64,000 bases of DNA from Lingula anatina (Eukaryota; Animalia; Brachiopoda): positions 25,654,225 through 25,718,224 of the forward strand of contig CM120640.1 of the NCBI GenBank assembly GCA_051362555.1. Reading direction: 5' to 3'. The translations under genes were made by a program, and so were the position numbers. This document shows positions 15,235 through 49,582 of the stretch, piece by piece; the stretch's first letter is position 1; each line of letters starts with the position of its first letter. Below the pieces are notes generated by a model. The model did not search any database. It saw only the letters and a program-made list of their open reading frames with translations, and had not been told where the DNA came from.

Positions 15235-16530
15235 GTAAAAGCGTTTTTCCTATATATATATATATAATAAAAAGAAAAAAAGTACAGCAACTTTTTTGCC
15301 CCGACCGGTTTCTTTCTTTCTTCAGGGGGTTTTGTTTATTTGTTACTAGGTGATGTCATAAAGGCTAAAATGTGACGTCTGTAACAATGGGTGTTTAATT
15401 GTTACTTTTACCAATACTTTTATCTATTCAATTTAGGTTTATACTTATTAATGAATATATTTTCTTTCATTTCCCTTTCTGTTTGGGTTGTTTCCCTAGT
15501 GAATTTATAAAATGGGAATACCGCAAAGTCCTTGTTTTTGTTCATAGAGCATTTCCTAATGTGCCCACTCACAGACGTGTGTTAAGATACTTCATGGTAT
15601 ATTACCACTTCATTATTTGTTGTCTGTGAACGGTCATTCTATGTCGGAGAGTGTTTCCAGTTTGTCCTATATAGTTCTCACCGCATCCACTGCAAGTTAA
15701 TACATAAATTAAGTTTGAGCTAGTGCAGGTGAATGGGTGTTTAATTCTAAAAGTAAGTCCATTTTTAAATGTTAGATGGCTACCCTCTTTAATTAGTGGA
15801 CAGGTACCACACCTGGGTACCTCACATTTCTGTACTCGTATTGTTGAGGTTTCCACAATTGTCCTGGAATTGTTTTCAAATTTTGCTTTTGTTAAAATTT
15901 GCTTTAGTGATGGACTTTGTCTCTTACTCTTTATAATCTGCATTTCGGTTAGTATCTCATTCATTTTGTTATCTTGTTTTACCAAAGGTAAGTTTCCAGT
16001 TATGACATTGTGTACTTCCGGATTTTTTGGATTATATGTTGATATGTATGGCTTCCTTTTTAATTTTGTCTTTGGTGGTCCTCAGGTCGTTCTTCGGTAT
16101 CTGTTTTGCCTTTTTAATCCCAGTTTGTATCAGTTGTCTTGGGTATTGTCTCCTTAATAGGAATCCTTCAAGCTCTTTGAGCCTTTGTTTTAATATGGTT
16201 TCATTTGAGACAATTGTGCATAGTCTTCGAGCTAGATTGTATGGTATGTTGTGCTTAATGTGTCTGGGATGACACGAGTTAAAAGGGAGATATTGTTTTG
16301 TGTCTGGTGTTTTGTAGTACACATCTGTCTCAATTTTTCCTTTTACACTCATTACCATAACATCGAGGAATGGGAGTTGTGTTGAATTTGAATCCATCGT
16401 GAATTGTAAACAGGTATGTAGGTTGTTGAGGATCAGGTTGAAATCTTCCAATTCATTTTCTGTTTTGTCTCAAATTATAAAACAGTCATCAAGGAAACGT
16501 TTCCATGTGTTTTCTAATTGATTCCTAGGT
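15230..16530 (-). mobile_element. Penelope-like retroelement fragment (RT C-terminus, Cys-rich linker, GIY-YIG endonuclease; Neptune-like)
   Basis: WKRFLDDCF at about 16480-16505. ORF 16032-16451 has LPFLDV, TDVYYK, SCHPRH and IPYNLARR. ORF 15602-15985 has CEVPRCGTC and CTSSNLIYVLTCSGCGENYIGQTG..LRHRM..H. Confidence 0.92.
15299..15329 (-). ncRNA. Minimal hammerhead ribozyme motif in the Penelope 3' repeat (stem II collapsed)
   Basis: The minus strand reads CCCC-CTGAAGA-aagaaa-GAAA-CCGG-TC-GGGG. Stem I, the core boxes, a palindromic ACCGGT stem III and a GUC triplet are present. Confidence 0.6.
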
Positions 16531-20781: not shown

Positions 20782-21989
20782 GCTTTCTCTTATTTATACA
20801 AATGGCTGCAGCGCCTGGCTAAATCTCTGGGAATGCACCCTTAATTGTGCACCTATTGCAACTTAACTTGCCGACATATTGTACATAAGTTGTAACCTTC
20901 CATTAATTAATTATTATTACGATAACAAACACAGTGCATTACTATGGATATCTTTAACTAGCAATTGGCCTAGCAACATAGATTCTGCAATTTGTAAAAC
21001 TAAATCGCTAGCATTCAAATAAGCTGTTCTGTTCATCTCAGTGAACCAGATTATAAATCAATCATTTATTTCTATTAATACACTTCCTTATGCTTTCCTC
21101 TTTTGAGCTGGCAGGGCTCTCCTATCCCTCTCATCTCTGCCATATGGAGTCTATACTTCCTTTCTTCATTTTAGAGAAACATGGATCAACCCCCGGGAAT
21201 CCCAACACTGGGGGAAGCCGTCTACTGGGTCATGACCCCCGGCCCCAGCACCCCATACAGCATATTCCCAACCCCTGCAATGATGACAGGACCCAGAACA
21301 ACAGTAGCCGGGACACAAAGCCACAGCGTGACCTCAACCCCTCCAGTAGGAGCCACCAACACAGTAACCACCACAAGTCAGCACAACCTCGCAGCAATGG
21401 GGACAGCGACAACACAAGCTCAGCCTCGCCCTCCCCCCCCCCCCCCCCAATCCCACTCCTTTCCCTCAAGTTCACAAGCCCTCCCTTACCCCCAACTCGC
21501 AGGAAACATTCCAGTCCCCACTGCCTCTCCCGCCCAGACCCGGCTCCTAGGCACCAACGTGACAAACCCCCCTCACTATCTCTCCCATGCCCCCGACCAA
21601 GCTCAATATACTCCCTCCCACCTCCACTCAGTCAATAACAGATGTGAGAAACCCCCTTCCCTCCTCTCCCTTCCATTATCAAGGCTAGCCTCACTCCCAG
21701 CCTGTGCCCAACCCAGACCAAGCCCAACACAACGTGCCCGCCCACTACCCCATGGTCCAAGCCAACACCGCCCATCTCTCTTCTCAATTCCATGCGGCCA
21801 CAACTATGCCCCTCCAGGCCACGCCCCTTTTAATCACTATTCCAGCCACACCTTGCCCCAAGATGAAGCCCATGACCTCGGTACTCCAGGTAAGAAAATT
21901 CCTAGAACTAATATAGATCACCACGTCAACTCAAAATCGAGACAAAAAAAATTGGGATGATGATTATATCAATGTGAAAGATCTCCTCC

Positions 21990-23074
21990 CCCTTGTTTTC
22001 TACTGGGTTTTTCCCTAAAATCACAGAACTATTTTGATTAAAATTTACCCATGGGCTTACGTTCCAGTTGTCAAAAATTCAAAACCTTTAATTCGGCCAT
22101 AGAGTGGATAGCTAAAAACAAGTTTCAGATACCTGATATCCTACACTTGCTTGATGATTTCCTCATCCTGGCCCCAACCAAACAAGAATGTCAAAAACGG
22201 CTTGATCGTTTCATAGGAGTACCATTAGCCCCGGAAAAAACTACTTCCCCAGCTACTGTAATATCCTTCGCAGGTATAGAACTGGACACCTCACTGCAGG
22301 AGGCCCGCTTGCCCCCAGAAAAAAAATCAAAAACTGCCTAGAACTAGTCCATGCCCACATATCCAAAAAGAAAATAACACTACATGACCTCCAATCGATC
22401 ATTGGCCTTTTAAATTTCTGCTGCTTTATTATCCCGGTCGGGAGGGCCTTTTTAAGACGGCTCATCAATCTAACCATTGGGACGACCCAACCCCACTACA
22501 AAATTCGCCTCAACAATGAAGCCCGTGCTGACCTTTCTATGTGGAAAATATTCCTCCAAACCTTTAATGGGCGGGGCTTCTTCTACGATGATCTTTGGTC
22601 TTTGTCCTCAGCAGATTGCATTTTCACAGACTTATCCGGAGGTAATGGATATGGGGCACTATGTGATACCAAGTGGTTTTATGGTCAGTGGCCACAGGAA
22701 CTAAGAGGTTTCAAAATTGCCATTCTTGAACTTTATCCAATTGTCCTGGCCTTTTTCGTTTGGGGAGATCACTTGAAAAACAAAAAAGTAACAGTCTTTT
22801 CGGGCAATGATCATTCGAAGCCTTGATTTACATTCTTAATAAATGCACCTCGAAGGACCATTCTATAATGCTACTATTGAGAAAACTTATTCTGTATTGT
22901 TTAAAGAACAGCATTAACTTTCGAATCACCCACATACCTGGCGTGGACAATTGCGCCACTGATGCCCTCTCTCGATCCAATTTACAGGCCTTCAGAAGAC
23001 TGCAACCACTGGCAGATCCTCATCCTACCTCTATTCCCCCAGCTTGGTCACTAGACAACTTACTGAAGAATTGA
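21990..23074 (+). pseudogene. DIRS/Ngaro reverse transcriptase-RNase H, frameshifted, N-terminus deleted
   Basis: Motifs LPMGLRSSC..F, LHLLDDFLIL, GVPLAPEKT, FAGIELDT, IFTDLSG..GYGA, IAILELYPIV and HIPGVDN..DALSR. Confidence 0.9.
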
Positions 23075-24116
23075 ATAGCACATTGGAAGCTGCCCTCGCA
23101 AAGAACACCAGGAGGACTTACAGCAAAATTGAGCCGCTTTTATTGGAATTGCAACAAAAAATTGGCCTGAAAGCATTCCCTTCAGATCCAGCAGTCACAG
23201 CCCTAGTTGTACAATATCTAAGTGAACGATACAGGCCATCATTCATCAGGACTCACCTATCTGCGTTAAGCTACAAATACAAGATGGCAAGCATCCCGGG
23301 CCCAACGTTTGCTTTCATAGTTAGCAATTCAAGGTCTGGAGAAGAAAAACCCCTCATGCGACAAAAGGTCCCCAGTTACTTTGTCAGTCCTACATACTCT
23401 GATACAGAGTCTTAGGGTGTATTCCCAGAGATTTTGCAGTCAACCGAGCGCGCACCATAGTTAATTACCCCCTTACAGCTTTCAGTAGGCGGGACAGACG
23501 CTTAAGCCGGCTAAGCTAACAGTAATCTAGTGAGACTCCCCACAGGGGTGGGTCGATCTAAAATCTATGGAAATGGGGTCTTACCGTCTGTACGCAGTCA
23601 GCCTACGAAGCACACTTAATCGCTGCCATGTTTACGCTTGCATTCTTTGGACTCTTGAGGATAAGTGAAGTTGTATCCAGCGATACCGACCACCATCTTC
23701 AACTTGAAAACGTTAAGATAAATCAGCCTGAAGGCACCATCACCTTACATCTCCCTTCTTTTAAACATGCAAGTCAGAACTCGAATCACACTGTGATCAT
23801 TCGCAAACAAATGACTAAGGTATGTCCTGTGAGATGGGTCTCCGAATACGCATCCCTACGCCCTAGCACAAGCTATAGACACTTCTTCGTTCACGCTGAT
23901 GGATCCCCAGTTCGCACCCAGGATTTCAATATATATATAGCCTACTTAGAACACTGTGTGAAGACAGCTAACCTCTCCCACCTGAACATTAAAAGCCATA
24001 GATTTCGTATTGGCAGTGCTTCACGTATTGGCATGTCGGAAACTCAAATCAAACTCCTAGGCAGATGGACATCAGACGCATATAAAAATACCTCCGGTTT
24101 TAATTATTTTTATTAA
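23044..24116 (+). pseudogene. DIRS/Ngaro tyrosine recombinase interrupted by a MITE
   Basis: Motifs AFFGLLRISE, SHRFRIG and IKLLGRWTSDAYK. Removing 23415-23580 plus one TTA restores LHTLIQSLTVCTQSAYEAHLIAAMFTLAFF. Confidence 0.9.
23415..23580 (+). mobile_element. Harbinger-like MITE (same family as 17065), internally deleted
   Basis: TTA TSD at 23412-14 and 23581-83. Confidence 0.9.
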
Positions 24117-24789
24117 TCTTATATTGTTTCAGATTCTTAGCACTAGCGACTAGAAGTGTCACTTAATCAGATCATGTTTTCCTTCAATATGCTAATAAGA
24201 GAGCACTCACAAAATCTGGGCACTAATATTCATTGCCCATGCACGTGTCCATTGTATTCAAAAATAGAATAGTGAATCTTATAGAACGTCAGTTATTTAG
24301 GATTCTTGGTACTACGGTCTGTAATTGTCACTTAACCATGTTTTGCTAATCCGAGAGCAAAGAAAAACTGGGCATGAACAATCACTATCATGCAGATTGC
24401 TTATTAATTTGATATGTAAACGTCAAAAAATCCTCCATGATCCTCGGTCCAGGGGTCTTGGTTCTTGGAGGTTTTTAGGTTCTAGAAAATTATGTTATTA
24501 GGATAGAGATTCTATATTCATATTTGATAGGTATATTCCCATTTCCTTGATGGGTCAACTTCCAAAATCCTCCGTGGTCCTCGGTCCAGGGGTCTTGGAC
24601 TGTGGAGATCTTTGAATTTCATAATTCATATACTAATTCTGTATTCCATTTTGAGAGACATTAAATCATATTTGTATTTTACAAGCTAATCTCAGCCTGT
24701 TTCTTACAATTGTTACACATTATATCAATTTTTGGGTGGGGCAGAAAACTTACCGAGCCCCACCATTCGGTTTTACGATAAGTTTTCTA

Positions 24790-43113: not shown

Positions 43114-43349
43114 TCATCTACTTTCTGTAGGGTTTATTGACCAGTCTCTCTGTTCCCCTGAAAACTCGAGTTTTGACTGTGATTTGACTGTGATTCTGCT
43201 CCTCAGAAAAAAAATGCTTACAATATTCTCTTTTGACGACACTTCTGGTAGAATGCTAGTATGCGGTCCTTCAGGGCTGTAGTTTTCCGGGCACGACCAG
43301 TGCTGATGCCTGGTAGCATACAAAGCTTCATGTGACGCCGCTGGATGAT
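43114..43349 (-). CDS. Candidate C-terminal tail exon for the exon-2a isoform of the TRHR-like receptor
   Basis: Acceptor actaacgtttttaag|AT CAT CCA. It is open for 78 codons in exactly the phase left by the exon-2a donor (A|gtatgt) and is Ser/Thr-rich. No homology support. Confidence 0.4.
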
Positions 43350-43500
43350 CTTAAAAACGTTAGTTGAGTGATTCCAATGCGAATAGCACATATACATAAG
43401 TTAATAAAACTCTCCCTCATGCATTATTCGATACAATGCCACGCTTCAAAACTGATCAAGTTACTGTGCCACAAGAGTACACTTAGCCTGTCATTATGTT

Positions 43501-43677
43501 CAGACCCAGGCCAGGGGGGTTTCGGGGGGTTCGAAAGAACCGCCCTTTTTGCTGGGAAAAGGTCCACTCTGGGTAAAATTAGATCTATTTACTTGAGGAT
43601 TTTATGGTAAAAGGTCCACTTTTTCAGAAAACGAACCCCTTCCCCCCCCCCCTCTGAAATTGCTGGCTACGGGCCTG
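43501..43677. mobile_element. hAT-like MITE, inverted copy of 12843-13022
   Basis: Shared GGGGGTTCGAAAGAAC, AAAAGGTCCACTCTGGGTAAAAT and CTGGCTACGGGCCTG. Confidence 0.8.
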
Positions 43678-43910
43678 AGACCTGTAATACAGTGTGCACT
43701 ACTCTTACCAACTATTCTGCATTACTTGAGGATTTCTGTCTACTTTCGACTTGCAAATCGTTTATTGATCATTGCATTGCATGAGTGTATGCCATACTGG
43801 TACATGTACCAAGAACAGTGTAAAGACATTATACGTACTTCCAAGTGTGCCTTATTACGTTAGTAATCATTGTCAGACACTGGTGTTCTTGAAAAATTCA
43901 TTTATGGATA

Positions 43911-44219
43911 TCATCTGGAAATTGAGTCCTCTTTTTGCAGCTCAGAAAACGTTGTGTGAATGTTTGACCCTGTCCCAAACTTTCTCTTCACGGCAGAGCG
44001 GCACAGGAGTCTCTTAAACGCTATCTGGAACCTTTTCGACATGGCGTTGTACAAAATGGGGTTAATGGCAGAGTTCAAAAAGATCATCATTAAGCAAAAC
44101 AGTACGAACCATTCATTTAAGAACGGGCGTGATGAAACAGAGTTGTACACGACGAGACCTCTATAGGGAAGCCACAGGACTGCAAAGAGAACCACAATAA
44201 CGGCTAGCATTTTGACGAT
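43911..44219 (-). CDS. TRHR: TRHR-like GPCR exon 2b (TM6-TM7, helix 8 and C-tail)
   Basis: Acceptor ttcttttctag|ATC GTC AAA ATG. It encodes [20 protein letters not shown]...[19 protein letters not shown], with the stop at 43911 and AATAAA at 43766-43761. Joined to exon 1 it gives 397 aa. Confidence 0.92.
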
Positions 44220-45237
44220 CTAGAAAAGAAAGAGATTAAACAAGATCAAATAGAATGCTTAGAGTATACATTGCATGTGTATTTTAACTAGCAGCAGTAT
44301 GTTTGTCTTTAAGGACAATTTTATGCTTAATTATATGGTCACAAAAGCTACTGTAGTTAATGAATATTGCCAATGACAAATCCATTTAATATTTTAAATC
44401 ATAGAAAGTATTATGTAATAAGAAAGATAAATACTCAAAATTTGAAACTTCACTACCCTTTCAATGAATACCAACAATTACAAATTAGACTAAATTGTAA
44501 CATTCTAAAACTAACAATCATATCAGATATTTGTTTTTATTTTACATAGCCTGTTTTTACATAGGAGAAAATCATTAAAAATTTGATTAATGAAATTTCA
44601 TGCTGTTATAAACATAACAGTATCAGGATAACACAACCATAAATAATACAAAGCAGCAAACTCTAGTCACTACTTTTGGAATACACATCATAACCCTTTG
44701 TTGTTTCTGCTAATACTCGTGTCAATGTGCATAAATCATATTACTTTTGTGCATAAGTGCATTTCGTGGACGAAATATTAACAGTGCATACATGCAAAGG
44801 ATGTTGACTGGAGCAAACAGAAAATCATATTCCCAGAAACTGCATGCCAAAGAAAAAAAACGAAGAGGTGCAGATCTCACGATATATAACGTACTTGTAA
44901 ATTCATGCTATATTCCCTTATAATAATTGTTTTCTTACAATGACTCCTAAATTGCTATGGTTCCTGCTATTCAATACAACAATCCTAAAAGCAGTGTATG
45001 GAATAAACAACGGAGGAAGTTGTTTCAATTGGTTTTCTTATATATATACTGTATATGCACTAGTTAGCAGGGTTCTGCCTCATACAGTACAAATATCATG
45101 CATTTTACTACATACATGGTTTAGTTGTGCCTTTTGGAAATCCTGTTATTATGATGCCGTAGCGAGGCTTGAAGCAGATCTATCTTAAAACAGCTCTACT
45201 GATATCTCTGTCTAACATTTATAAAATCTCTATCTTA

Positions 45238-45935
45238 GGCCCCTATTTCACACAGACCACGAATCCCACGAATCGCCAAGAATTGACAAATTTCAGGATT
45301 CGTGAGGGTTCTTGAGGATTCGTGAGATTTTGCCAATTTTCTGGTCTAATTCGACACGCTCACGATTCAGTTACGATACAGGTACGATAGTGTTACGAAT
45401 ATTCGTGGGATTCGGCTGGAATCGTGAGATTTTGCCAATTTTCTGGTCTAGTTTGACACGCTCTACGATTCAGTTACGATACAGGTGCGATAGTGTTACG
45501 AATATTCGTGGGATTCGGCTGGAATCGCACGAATATTGTCCAGAAATTCATTACGATTTTATGGAATCGGGAGTTCGTGGCCAGAACTTTGAACAGCTCA
45601 AAATTTTTGCCACGAATTCCCGATTGATCAAGATTTGCAAGAACTGACTACGATTATATACGAATCTGTTAAGAACTTCACGACCTGATTACGATTCAAC
45701 CACGAATCCTGAAATCTTCAATTCCTGGCGATTCGTGGGATTCGTGGTCTGTGTGAAATAGGGGCATCAAAGTTTTTGCCACCAATTCCTGTTGGCCAAT
45801 AAGTGCAAGAACTGACTACGAATATATACGAATCTGTTAAGAACTTCACGAACTGATTACGATTCAACCACGAATCGTGAAATTTGTCAATTCATGGCCA
45901 TTCGTGGGATTCGTGGTCTGTGTGAAATAGGGGCA
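45238..45935. mobile_element. Harbinger-like MITE with duplicated right end
   Basis: The TIR GCCCCTATTTCACACAGACCACGAATCCCACGAAT is matched at about 45730-45766 and 45900-45935. TTA flanks and an internal tandem duplication of about 102 bp. Confidence 0.85.
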
Positions 45936-45976
45936 TTACATACATAAAATTTCATGCGCCATTGAACACAGATGTT

Positions 45977-46195
45977 TCACATACTTCTTCTTAAGGCCTC
46001 TCGAAAGCTAGTAGACATGATGTTGTAAATTATGGGGTTTATTGCGCTGTTTATAGAAATAAGCGTCCTGCACAATAGGAGAAGCCAGATATCCGTTTTC
46101 GGGCGGTCTGTCATAGAGTTGTAAACCATTAGTCCCCGATATGGAAGCCACAGGAAGGCAAATAAAACCACTATCACCATTACCATCTTCACAAC
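45977..46195 (-). CDS. TRHR: TRHR-like GPCR exon 2a (alternative TM6-TM7 and helix 8)
   Basis: Acceptor ctgttcctcag|GTT GTG AAG ATG. It encodes VVKMVMVIVVLFAFLWLPYR...LCR..INSAINPIIYNIMS..F. It ends either at TGA 45977 or at the donor AA|GTATGT at 45984. Confidence 0.88.
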   Translation of the reverse strand, partial: VVKMVMVIVVLFAFLWLPYRGLMVYNSMTDRPKTDIWLLLLCRTLISINSAINPIIYNIMSTSFREALRRSM

Positions 46196-46390
46196 CTGAG
46201 GAACAGTTTAGAATTGGAGAATGTTGAATTTAAGCGTTAAGTGTGAAGGAAATCTTGCTCAAACTAAGAACTTATCGTACAGAAGTCTATCTGGATACAA
46301 AAGAAAAACATATTTCAGCGCCCAGGCATTTACTCATAACCGACTTTGGTAACCGACTGTCCCCGCATTGTAGAAACATAGAAAATATTT

Positions 46391-46459
46391 TGTAGAGCCG
46401 CGTTTTGCAACTGAACGCATAAAGGCATTTTGCGTTCGGTTGCAAAATGCGGCTCTACA
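46391..46459. repeat. 29-bp-arm palindrome in the intron
   Basis: TGTAGAGCCGCGTTTTGCAACTGAACGCA, an 11-nt loop, then TGCGTTCGGTTGCAAAATGCGGCTCTACA. Confidence 0.85.
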
Positions 46460-48451
46460 GCTTAACCCAAAAGAGGATGGATTGTATGCAATTGCATTTT
46501 CTGTCTGCACAAGCCTTTTATACGTATCGATTATGTGGTTGTGGCCTTTACAAACAACTGCTTTTTTCTTGACTTAACAACTTAAATCTTCGATCACTCG
46601 GTCTTTGCTCAGTAATATATATCTGCAAAGGAAACAGAATTTGCAAAAGCATCGCTGATTTTTATAAAGAGCTACATTTGTAGAAAAGCGATCCAAGCTT
46701 TTCTATTGCTTTTCGATGTTCAAGTTGTGTGGGCGAAGGAAATACTAATCAGAATACAAGACTTAAAAGCACTTGAAGGCACTTAGTTTTACTTAGTCAA
46801 CATGTCGTCATTATGGATGTGCATTTAACCTTGGGCCGAGCACCAGCACTTACAGTTGGGCAGAAGGTGGGTATAGACAGCCACAAATCAATTAAAATAT
46901 GAATTAATCCAAGTATTCAATCACAATGAATTAGTTAAAATTAACTATCTGGAATATCTTATGCATGGAAAACAGGTTGTGCGATTTTTACAATCGGGCT
47001 CGTGTAAGTAAAACTGACCATACCCCTCTTAAAAATTAAAAAATGAACTGTCATATGCAATAAACATAACTGATGATGCGCAATTTGATTACACGTTTTG
47101 GTTACCATTACCAGCCTATTATCTGAACTGCTATTTGACAGAAACAACTTAATCAGCCGAAGATAGGAAAATGGCAGCATCAATTGATTGGAAATGATAC
47201 TTCTCGGAAATTATTATTTTACGCAATGCTATCATGGCATGGGATAAAGGATGAGCTTTAGACAGCAGACATCCTGTCAGCGACATTCAAATGTCCGTTC
47301 ATCCGTTTCCAGTTGGCAGCCAGGCGAGATTTATGAGAAATCGTAGCCTTGTCTAAAAATTCCACAGTATCAGGTAACAATCCAGCTGTGAAACTGACCC
47401 CATGATGTCTCATCATAATTAACCTCTTATTTCATAGTTTGTCAAATGGGAAATTATTCTACATGTACCAGATAAACGGATTTTTCCGGTGGAATGGAAA
47501 TGGACTACAGAGGGACAACTTGATATTGCTGAAACGCTCTCATACTTGAATTGAAAAGAATGTTTCTTTCAATAACTTCGTTGTTCGCCTCAAGTTTTGA
47601 AAATGCGTCATCAACGTGTATCATTTCATTGACAGACAATTCATCCTATAATATCTTTCTCGATCGCCTTAATTCCAGATAAAATTCCAAGACGTTCAAT
47701 AATGAAACCATGGATAATCTAACTTTCTATATTTATGATTTTGCCACTGAATTTTGATTTAATTCAGTTAGTTAATTCAGTTCAAAACAGGCTCTGTGAA
47801 ATTATTTCTGTTGCTTAAAATGTTCTATCAATGCGATATCAGCTCGTTTAATTATACACCATGATTCTATCAAAATAAAAATGCAAGACAATAGATGTCA
47901 ATGAATGTCATTGAGAGATAATTAAAGGATTACGCGGGCTTCCTTTCATGTAGGTCCGCCATATTTAGGTCTCGGCCTTGCTAGACCTCGGCTATTCTCG
48001 ATGTGAATGCTCTCAGTGAGACTAGGCTTATTTGCAGTAGCACCCAACAAATATTTTCTCCAAATCGTTCTTAAGCGAATGTTAAATGAAGATAACACGT
48101 TTCAGGGTGTTACTGACAATCATGACGGGGTGGCCTGGAGTGGTCGATCCATTCACCTTTCCAAGCTGGTTTCCATTATTCCAGCAGGAAAGCCGTTCAC
48201 CCAGTGCAAATCCGTTCTCCACTTGGTATAATTACTTGTACGTAAACCTTCAGTTTCCAGTTGGTAATGACCAGATAAACGGATTTTTGGGTGAACGGCT
48301 CTGCTGAGTGCCCCCCCCCCCTCGTATTTGCTCACCTGGTTAAAAAAGCATGTTAGTCATTTTGACTAAAAGCGTCATTCACTGAGATCAAAATATTTAG
48401 TCACCATCCACACATACACTTTTCATAACTAATAAATAACACAATGCCTAC

Positions 48452-49336
48452 TTGTATCCTAGAAGACGGGTTTTGTTCGCTTCTTGTAGAAGATTTTTTA
48501 TTAATGGACCCCATCTCTTCTCGATTTTTTTCATTCTTGCGATTGCGTCGTCTAATACTATCCGCCACAGCTCCCGTCCTCTCGCTGCTGAACAAGACCC
48601 TCCCTATCAGGAAATACAGCACTGCAGTGAGACACAGCGGAAGAATATAAAACATTACAAGATCCACCAAGTAATATACAAAGTAATGGTCTCTCTTGAG
48701 TTTATAGTCACAGTTATTGAACGTCGTTTCATTGACTTCATTTATAGGAGTGATTTTAGTAAGAGCTAACCAAGGTGCAGAGTAGAGCGCGCTGAATACC
48801 CACAAAGCAATGATGATCTTTTTGGCGCGTGAGATGGTACATATAGTATAAGCTTTCATCGGATGGCATATGGCTATGTATCTTTCTACAGTGAACGCTG
48901 TTATAGATAAAGAAGACACGTTGATTCCCATATAACTAAAAAATGTCAACAGGGCACATGAGACAATCCCGTATGGTATGATCCCATATTTGTAGAACTG
49001 TCCTAGTGTGAACGGCAAAGTGGCAGTGAGGAGCACTATACAGTCAGCGGCGGCGAGACTCACCAAGTAACAATTCGTGGTGCTGTGCATCGTCTTGGTT
49101 CGGGTAACCACCCAGATAACTAGCACGTTTCCCAGGATTCCCACCAAGAATATCAGGAATCCCAAGGTGATGGAAATGACTTTATGTGCAATATTGACTG
49201 CCGGAGCCGTAACATTTGAAAGTGGATTGTCGGTCGTATTTTCCATTGTGTTGTTTAAAGGGAAAACTGCAACCGCGATCTCTGCCGACTGGTCTTGAGC
49301 AGTGACGTTTACCGAAATAAATGGCCAGCCCTCCAT
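48452..49336 (-). CDS. TRHR: TRHR-like class A GPCR coding exon 1 (N-terminus to TM5/ICL3, 295 codons)
   Basis: Motifs GILGN, TNCYLVSLAAAD, YMGINVSSLSITAFTVERYIAICHPMKA..CT.SRAKKII, CDYK and Y..D...FY..P. It ends SSRIQ|gtaggc (phase 0), matching the vertebrate TRHR SSRKQ|VTKML junction as I recall it. The acceptor ttctttacag at 49482 gives 145 nt of 5' UTR. Several N-x-T sequons are present. Confidence 0.95.
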
Positions 49337-49582
49337 CTCCTATGAATGTGTTGTAGAAACTAGTTCAAATATTTTGCGAGACGATGTCACTTTTAAGTCT
49401 GAACTAACTAACCGAAGAGCAGGTATCCATATGTGCGTCGAAAATCAACACAGTCTAAAAGCCTTGTTTCAAAGACTCAGTCTGTAAAGAAGAAAAAAAA
49501 TGACATCATGCAAAATGGTGAAAATATAGGTACATGATTATTCGGTTAAAATCATTATTTTCCTCTTAGAAAAATGCCACTA

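What the first reader, a model, noticed from the sequence alone, without database searches (positions are those of the whole stretch)
43911..49336. TRH-receptor-like gene with two duplicated, apparently mutually exclusive TM6-TM7 exons
Seen: there is one TM1-TM5 exon ending at a phase-0 donor. It is followed by two separate stop-free TM6-ECL3-TM7-helix 8 exons, each with a pyrimidine tract and AG at the equivalent phase-0 position (V/I-V-K-M). By hand count they align without gaps at 42 of 70 identical residues, and the WLPYR and NSAINP..Y motifs are kept while ECL3 diverges. No second TM1-5 exon lies between them, so this is exon duplication, not gene duplication. Established: vertebrate TRHR uses a single exon here, while insect ecdysis-triggering-hormone receptors make A/B isoforms from mutually exclusive 3' exons. 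Inference: one locus makes two receptors by swapping the C-terminal third, and both exons are under purifying selection. I cannot check whether this has already been reported for this lineage.
Basis: partly seen in the sequence, partly recalled or inferred. Interest (0 to 1): 0.9.

Follow-up and report, generated by a model that had tools for sequence, protein, structure and literature searches.

The report
TRH receptor with two alternative tails
A brachiopod hormone-receptor gene has one front exon followed by two intact, long-diverged versions of its last exon; RNA shows mainly the second, so the first is likely a minor alternative ending that would give a tail-less receptor, though its splicing was not seen.

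Summary
The anatomy is real: one TM1-5 exon (49336-48452) and two stop-free TM6-TM7-helix 8 exons, A (46195-45977) and B (44219-43911), 42/70 identical, both at phase-0 acceptors. The protein matches a Lingula anatina TRH-receptor-like record built from exon 1 + B. Annotated paralogs on the same scaffold also carry A-type and B-type endings; A groups with A and B with B, and A+B as sisters is rejected (AU p=0.03). The pair is therefore old and both exons evolved under constraint. These are alternative last exons, not cassette exons. In 8 RNA runs expression was low and no splice joint reached the listing threshold. Exon B had clearly more coverage; the two fragments' worth of reads on A ran unspliced into its intron. 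A keeps the TRH-contact residues but stops at human codon 336 (no tail); B has a tail but loses Arg7.39. This resembles insect ETHR-A/B at a different junction in a sister family. Use of exon A is unproven.

The parts
48452..49336 (-). Coding part of the shared exon: N-terminus, TM1-TM5, ICL3; ends at a phase-0 GT donor
   Evidence: RNA depth about 1-5 in runs X4 and X7
49337..49481 (-). Predicted 5' UTR part of the same exon, after a pyrimidine-rich AG at 49482
   Evidence: Sequence; reads in bin 49354-49570 in X4 and X7; upstream exons not mapped
45977..46195 (-). Exon A: TM6-ECL3-TM7-helix 8, 72 aa, stop right after helix 8, keeps Arg7.39
   Evidence: acceptor with 70% pyrimidines, 56-nt AG-free zone and TTAAC at -45; only unspliced reads seen
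45238..45935 (.). Multi-copy inverted-repeat element (MITE-like) flanked by TTA on both sides, 41 bp after the stop of exon A, with a duplicated right end
   Evidence: many reads from other copies end at its termini
43911..44219 (-). Exon B coding part: TM6-ECL3-TM7-helix 8 plus C-tail with Cys, 102 aa, Arg7.39 replaced by Leu
   Evidence: used in database model P0001; depth 6.9 and 5.6 in X8 and X9
43120..43910 (-). Likely 3' UTR of the exon B transcript, AATAAA at 43766 and 43138, with another repeat at about 43510-43680; true end not mapped
   Evidence: hexamers; depth about 0.2-2.5 in X4 and X7 outside the repeat, with reads also beyond 43120

Best explanation
This is a TRH/EFLGamide-type GPCR gene with one TM1-5 exon and two intact, long-diverged TM6-TM7 last exons; exon B is the form in the annotation and the better covered in RNA, and exon A is likely a minor or tissue-restricted alternative ending. 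The single donor at 48452 would choose between a weaker proximal acceptor (A) and a stronger distal one (B). Exclusivity needs no special machinery because each exon carries its own stop. The exon pair likely arose before this gene split from its neighbouring paralog and was kept in both. Exon 1 + A is predicted to keep the TRH-type pocket but lack the palmitoylation cysteine and phosphorylation tail, so it would desensitise poorly. Exon 1 + B is predicted to keep a tail but have a changed pocket (Arg7.39 to Leu). Shown: anatomy, age of the pair, past constraint, higher coverage of B. Inferred: splicing into A, order of duplications, all pharmacology.
For: Anatomy. Paralog proteins P0002 and P0121 share residues 1-288 with one difference and diverge at the same junction into A-type and B-type endings. 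Tree: A+A-type 97/92, B+B-type 98/82; A+B sisters rejected, p=0.029. Among 406 non-Lingula pairs, exon-1 core identity of 80-90% goes with TM6-7 identity of 80-97% (12 pairs), and 60-65% with a mean of 70% (109 pairs); A-A' 67% and B-B' 73% fit the 61% split from the P0002/P0121 first exon, not the 81% split from P0162. A linked-branch model with an inherited exon pair beats the gene-pair model by about 13 AIC and 7 BIC when B is linked, 8 and 1 when A is linked (fast search, one seed). Constraint on both exons. A keeps W6.48, Y6.51, R6.52, N6.58 and R7.39; B is the only row of 35 without R or K at 7.39. R306(7.39) is a TRH contact (PMC9437008). Receptors cut at residue 334 do not recruit arrestin or internalise (PMC3521152).
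Against: No exon1-A joint in 8 runs, about 12 billion letters read; all coverage of A (296 bases in X7, 301 in X9) includes upstream intron. No exon1-B joint was listed either, so power is low. No coverage at 44608-45059 in any of the 8 runs, where a 3' UTR of an A form would run to the first downstream AATAAA at 44541. No exon 1 + A protein in the database (weak, since P0001 itself has no transcript-assembly source) and no A-type sequence found in the supplement of PMC8557429. A has the longest end branch (0.94), 4 departures at 31 conserved columns and a truncated tail. On columns shared by both paralog exons, the constraint test for A alone is not significant (3 of 29 against 6 of 19, p=0.13). 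P0002 and P0121 carry no isoform label and differ by one residue, so they look like separate gene models, not annotated isoforms.
Confidence: 0.45

Rival explanations
1. Remnant of a tandem gene pair: an A-type gene followed by a B-type gene was duplicated as a pair, and in this copy the B-type gene lost its first exon. Exon 1 + A is then the native gene and exon 1 + B a chimera that became the main transcript.
For: Window exon 1 is closest (81%, 99/98) to the first exon of P0162, which is annotated with an A-type ending. If accession order follows position on the minus strand (assumed), the models read E1c-A', E1b'-A, E1b-B, then this gene; one tandem or haplotype duplication of the A...E1b segment explains both near-identical pairs and leaves E1c-A, E1b-B. 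A transcript confirms E1b spliced to B-type. Window exons A and B have end branches 3.5-5 times their partners', which could explain the low identities.
Against: TM6-7 identities of 67% and 73% lie below all 12 reference pairs at 80-90% exon-1 identity. The linked-branch model is worse. No exon-1 remnant between A and B. Gene order is inferred from accession numbers, not seen.
Confidence: 0.3
2. Whatever the origin, exon A is now silent: a recently bypassed pseudo-exon, still open because it has been free of selection only briefly.
For: No spliced A read. Tail lost: another frame reads on to a Cys at the position where the paralog has FRKAC, suggesting a one-base shift. Repeat insertion 41 bp past the stop. 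A neutral 70-codon frame stays open 35-70% of the time at 0.05 changes per site.
Against: Long AG-free zone and branch-like motif are kept. All five TM6-7 pocket residues are kept. With 23 differences from its paralog copy, only 3 hit conserved columns. The open-frame chance falls to 1-29% at 0.2 changes per site. RNA depth is too low and tissues are unknown.
Confidence: 0.2
3. Assembly error: a second first exon between A and B was dropped.
For: Duplicated or artefact-like TRHR models occur in this and other assemblies (P0012 repeats TM6; P0165 repeats the whole exon exactly). A repeat lies between A and B. No DNA reads could be laid.
Against: The window has no N. The database model joins the same exon 1 to B and differs at 3 residues, so it comes from another haplotype or assembly. 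One read part in X9 stops at the donor and, by elimination, likely continues on B.
Confidence: 0.05

Closest known systems
Insect ecdysis-triggering-hormone receptor, ETHR-A/ETHR-B
   Same: One GPCR gene with two alternative 3' exons that replace the C-terminal part of the 7TM bundle; the isoforms differ in ligand sensitivity and expression (PMC8175484, PMC8291126, passages). ETHR is called the closest relative of the EFLamide receptor (PMC7294237, passage).
   Different: ETHR swaps from the end of TM4 (about 60% of the protein); here the swap is from TM6. Both ETHR isoforms are proven; here A is not. Different receptor family, so most likely independent.
Human TRHR and protostome EFLGamide/EFLamide receptors
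   Same: Best PDB match for all three exons. Both last exons start at human residue 264. Y106, N110, Y181, R185, Y192, W279, Y282, R283 and N289 are kept.
   Different: Q105 is Ser; R306 is Leu in exon B; exon A stops at codon 336. None of the annotated isoforms of other species listed showed a second kind of TM6-7.
Rat TRH-R1 long and short splice forms
   Same: Alternative splicing changes the C-terminus of a TRH receptor (PMC9485831, passage).
   Different: A 52-residue tail deletion with unchanged signalling; no duplicated transmembrane exon.
Engineered C335Stop / 334-truncated TRH receptor
   Same: Exon 1 + A would end within two residues of this truncation, before the palmitoylated cysteines.
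   Different: A laboratory mutant of the mammalian receptor; the behaviour of the brachiopod form is untested.

Membership tests
TRH/EFLGamide receptor family | TRHR is the closest characterised receptor for every exon | tested here: met
   PDB phmmer: exon 1 E 6.7e-55 against 6.4e-28 for the next family; B 5.9e-26 against 3.6e-12; A 1.1e-20 against 2.2e-6. Named hits are almost all TRHR-like.
TRH/EFLGamide receptor family | TRH-contact residues Q105, Y106, Y192, Y282, N289, R306, Y181, R185 (PMC9437008) | tested here: inconclusive
   Exon 1 + A keeps 7 of 8 (Q105 is Ser); exon 1 + B keeps 6 of 8 (also R306 to Leu).
TRH/EFLGamide receptor family | Groups with TRHR rather than ETHR in a tree | not tested
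By eye, TM6 reads W[LM]PYR..YNS like the Platynereis, C. elegans and vertebrate TRH-type sequences, unlike the LLPFR/LIPFR-type ETH receptors, in the supplement of PMC8557429.
TRH/EFLGamide receptor family | Activated by a TRH/EFLGamide-type peptide | not testable with these tools
   PMC8557429 detected the EFLGamide/TRH propeptide only in nemerteans among the three phyla studied.
ETHR-A/B splicing system | Alternative exons start at the end of TM4 | tested here: not met
   The junction is before TM6; ETHR junction from PMC8175484.
ETHR-A/B splicing system | Both spliced isoforms are expressed | tested here: inconclusive
   B is covered and annotated; no spliced A read; no joint listed for either at low depth.
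Mutually exclusive internal cassette exons | Each alternative exon splices on to a shared downstream exon | tested here: not met
   Both exons end in their own TGA; no further 7TM exon in the window.
Tandem exon duplication within this gene | The two exons are each other's closest relatives | tested here: not met
   AU p=0.029; each groups with a paralog's exon.

The most novel reading that the evidence does not exclude
A brachiopod TRH-receptor array keeps an ancient pair of swappable TM6-TM7-tail exons in more than one paralog, so one gene makes a tail-less, non-desensitising receptor with an intact TRH-type pocket and a tailed receptor with an altered pocket: a second, independent origin of ETHR-like A/B receptor switching, and a natural counterpart of the C335Stop mutant.
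Probability: 0.3. Interest if true: 0.72.

Novelty: new variant of a known kind. Interest (0 to 1): 0.48.

Why it matters
If exon A is spliced, a TRH-family receptor changes three of its ligand contacts' scaffold (TM6, ECL3, TM7) and its whole desensitisation tail with one splice choice, at an intron that seems shared with vertebrates. It would show alternative 3' exon switching arising separately in the TRHR and ETHR sister families, and give a ready pair of receptors for finding the brachiopod ligand, which published neuropeptide surveys did not detect. If the gene-pair rival is right, it is a clear case of a chimeric GPCR made by exon capture in a tandem array. If A is silent, it is ordinary array turnover.

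Tried and rejected
No whole genome is held, so the paralog DNA could not be read. The look-up of sequencing runs listed no indexed RNA holder, only 9 same-species raw-read runs; 8 of 9 were laid, 6-30% of each read; no joint was listed for either exon. No DNA run was available after that search. Search with exon A for longer proteins: 3 hits among 48 candidates, none exon 1 + A; for short proteins: none. Representative search: 508 hits, best 150 listed; the top hit with two stretches is an oyster model with an exact repeat, read as an artefact; no hit above 66% identity, so no A-type orthologue outside Lingula was recognised (6 sequences read, 10 looked up). Mollusc and crustacean isoforms share one TM6-7, so a pan-protostome feature is not supported. 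No exon-1 remnant between A and B; a weak nhmmer match near 38.8-38.9 kb (score 11.5, bias 7.1) had no protein-profile support and was dismissed. No convincing intron homology upstream of the two acceptors and no long complementarity between the introns (best 19 nt, E 0.02). AU test of all four array exon types as one clade was uninformative (p=0.25). Earlier findings of the scan: none. The vertebrate intron position was not confirmed from a paper. No structure or complex was predicted; the alignments to human TRHR over TM6-7 have no gaps.
Full report
Observation. The coordinates hold. Exon 1 (49336-48452, minus strand) gives 295 codons and ends at a phase-0 GT. Exon A (46195-45977) and exon B (44219-43911) each follow a pyrimidine tract and AG, are stop-free, and align without gaps at 42 of 70 residues. 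Third codon positions are near saturation (30 of 72 identical) while second positions are 57 of 72; dN/dS is about 0.18. Pfam puts 7tm_1 positions 1-190 on exon 1 and 201-260 on each of A and B. No other 7TM piece was found in the 64 kb. A is the only 70-codon open stretch after a YAG between the donor and B. Each exon has its own stop, so these are alternative last exons.

Identity. The top database hit P0001 is named thyrotropin-releasing hormone receptor-like of Lingula anatina. It equals exon 1 + B except at 3 residues and has four listed accessions with no isoform label, so the annotation skips A and likely rests on another haplotype. Human TRHR is by far the best solved-structure match for all three exons, and both last exons begin at human residue 264. 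An unnamed vertebrate-like fragment (P0169) runs from unrelated sequence into the same residue, which suggests an intron at the same place; I could not confirm this from a paper. ETHR was excluded only by eye on motifs in a supplement, not by a tree.

Paralogs. Three more TRHR-like models lie on a scaffold of the same length as P0001's. P0002 and P0121 share residues 1-288 with one difference and then take an A-type and a B-type ending at the same junction. P0162 has a first exon 81% identical to the window's in TM3-5 and an A-type ending identical to P0002's over 70 residues. In trees of 37 and 35 rows (window exons plus 36 proteins I picked from about 160 stored), A joins the A-type endings (97/92), B joins the B-type ending (98/82), and window exon 1 joins P0162 (99/98). 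A and B as sisters is rejected (p=0.029); window rows have long branches, which weakens such tests. So the pair is older than this gene copy. Differences from the paralog copies avoid conserved columns (A: 3 of 31 against 20 of 39; B: 2 of 31 against 17 of 39), which shows past constraint, not present use.

Origin. Two histories fit. (1) An exon pair arose first and was inherited by both paralogs. The TM6-7 identities (67%, 73%) match what 109 of 406 reference pairs show at 60-65% exon-1 identity, and fall below all 12 pairs at 80-90%. A proportional-branch model also prefers it (AIC 8540 and 8546 against 8554; BIC 8690 and 8696 against 8697; 18 outgroup rows, fast search, one seed; the unlinked model had the best AIC, 8536). 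(2) A tandem pair of an A-type and a B-type gene was duplicated and this copy lost the second first exon. If accession order reflects position, one duplication explains both near-identical pairs among the paralog models, which is more economical, and faster change in the window's exons could account for the identities. I could not read the scaffold. I put history 1 modestly ahead.

RNA. Nine same-species runs were listed; eight were laid, 6-30% of each, about 12 billion letters. Expression is low and no splice joint reached the threshold of three reads for either exon. The first 152 nt of B had 1043 bases of coverage in X8 and 851 in X9, against 245 and 2 in the adjoining intron bin; X1, X4 and X7 also had reads on B, some in X7 intronic. 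A had 296 bases in X7 and 301 in X9, each about one read pair and each reaching into the upstream intron; X1, X2, X4, X5, X6 and X8 had none in the bins free of repeat reads. One 71-base read part in X9 stops at the donor and by elimination probably continues on B; 79 further bases in that bin are unexplained. No run covered 44608-45059. A published transcriptome supplement holds the paralog's exon 1 + B-type form and this gene's exon 1 read through into the intron, and no A-type sequence was found (PMC8557429; long entries are cut at about 400 letters). B therefore appears to dominate; A is unproven but not excluded, since tissues are unknown.

Predicted products. Both exons keep W6.48, Y6.51, R6.52 and N6.58. 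A keeps R7.39; B has Leu, alone among 35 rows, and the database haplotype agrees. R306(7.39) is a hydrogen-bond contact whose replacement lowers TRH activation (PMC9437008, passages). A ends at the equivalent of human residue 335, without the helix 8 cysteine; mammalian receptors cut at 334 do not bind arrestin or internalise (PMC3521152, passages). Another frame reads on to a cysteine at the expected place and a TTA-flanked inverted-repeat element sits 41 bp past the stop, so the short tail may be decay rather than design. A's acceptor is intact but weaker than B's (70% against 85% pyrimidines).

Comparison with known systems. Insect ETHR-A/B use alternative 3' exons from the end of TM4 (PMC8175484; PMC8291126; passages), and ETHR is described as the closest relative of the EFLamide receptor (PMC7294237, passage). 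Rat TRH-R1 has tail splice forms only (PMC9485831, passages). Isoforms of Haliotis, Pomacea, Mytilus, Oratosquilla and Daphnia listed share one TM6-7. Ten literature searches listed no paper whose title or abstract start describes this arrangement; the library lacks most subscription papers, and I read only passages of seven papers and search hits in one supplement. The naming of the element as PIF/Harbinger-like from its TTA flanks is recalled, not tested.

Verdict. Real feature; interpretation partly supported. A new variant of a known kind, with the key step (splicing into A) unseen and the origin open. Interest 0.48.

Noticed in passing
P0002, P0121, P0162 (same scaffold length as P0001): A tandem cluster of at least four TRHR-like models with mosaic first and last exons; two near-identical pairs suggest a recent tandem duplication or a haplotype placed twice.
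   Followed up: partly
window 45238-45935: TTA-flanked inverted-repeat element with a second right end at about 45767 and internal 102-bp repeats; could be a composite of two copies, which would fit a deletion scar, but this is untested.
   Followed up: partly
window 46043: An AATAAA lies inside the coding sequence of exon A (in the codons for the conserved TM7 motif); exon B has ATTAAC there.
   Followed up: no
window 48401-48451: Read-through of the exon 1 donor gives a 5TM product with 16 extra residues; a published transcript has this form and run X4 has reads in this intron.
   Followed up: partly
window 15600-16470: Fragmented ORFs with a weak GIY-YIG match (E 0.002), like a Penelope-type retroelement remnant (label recalled).
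   Followed up: partly
window 21000-24120: Fragmented ORFs with weak RT-thumb and tyrosine-recombinase matches, like a DIRS-type element remnant (label recalled).
   Followed up: partly
window 46391-46459: A 32-nt inverted repeat with a 5-nt loop about 200 nt upstream of the exon A acceptor; could be a small repeat or affect acceptor choice.
   Followed up: no
P0012 and P0165: Database TRHR models with exact internal repeats of TM6 or of the whole last exon, probably assembly artefacts.
   Followed up: no
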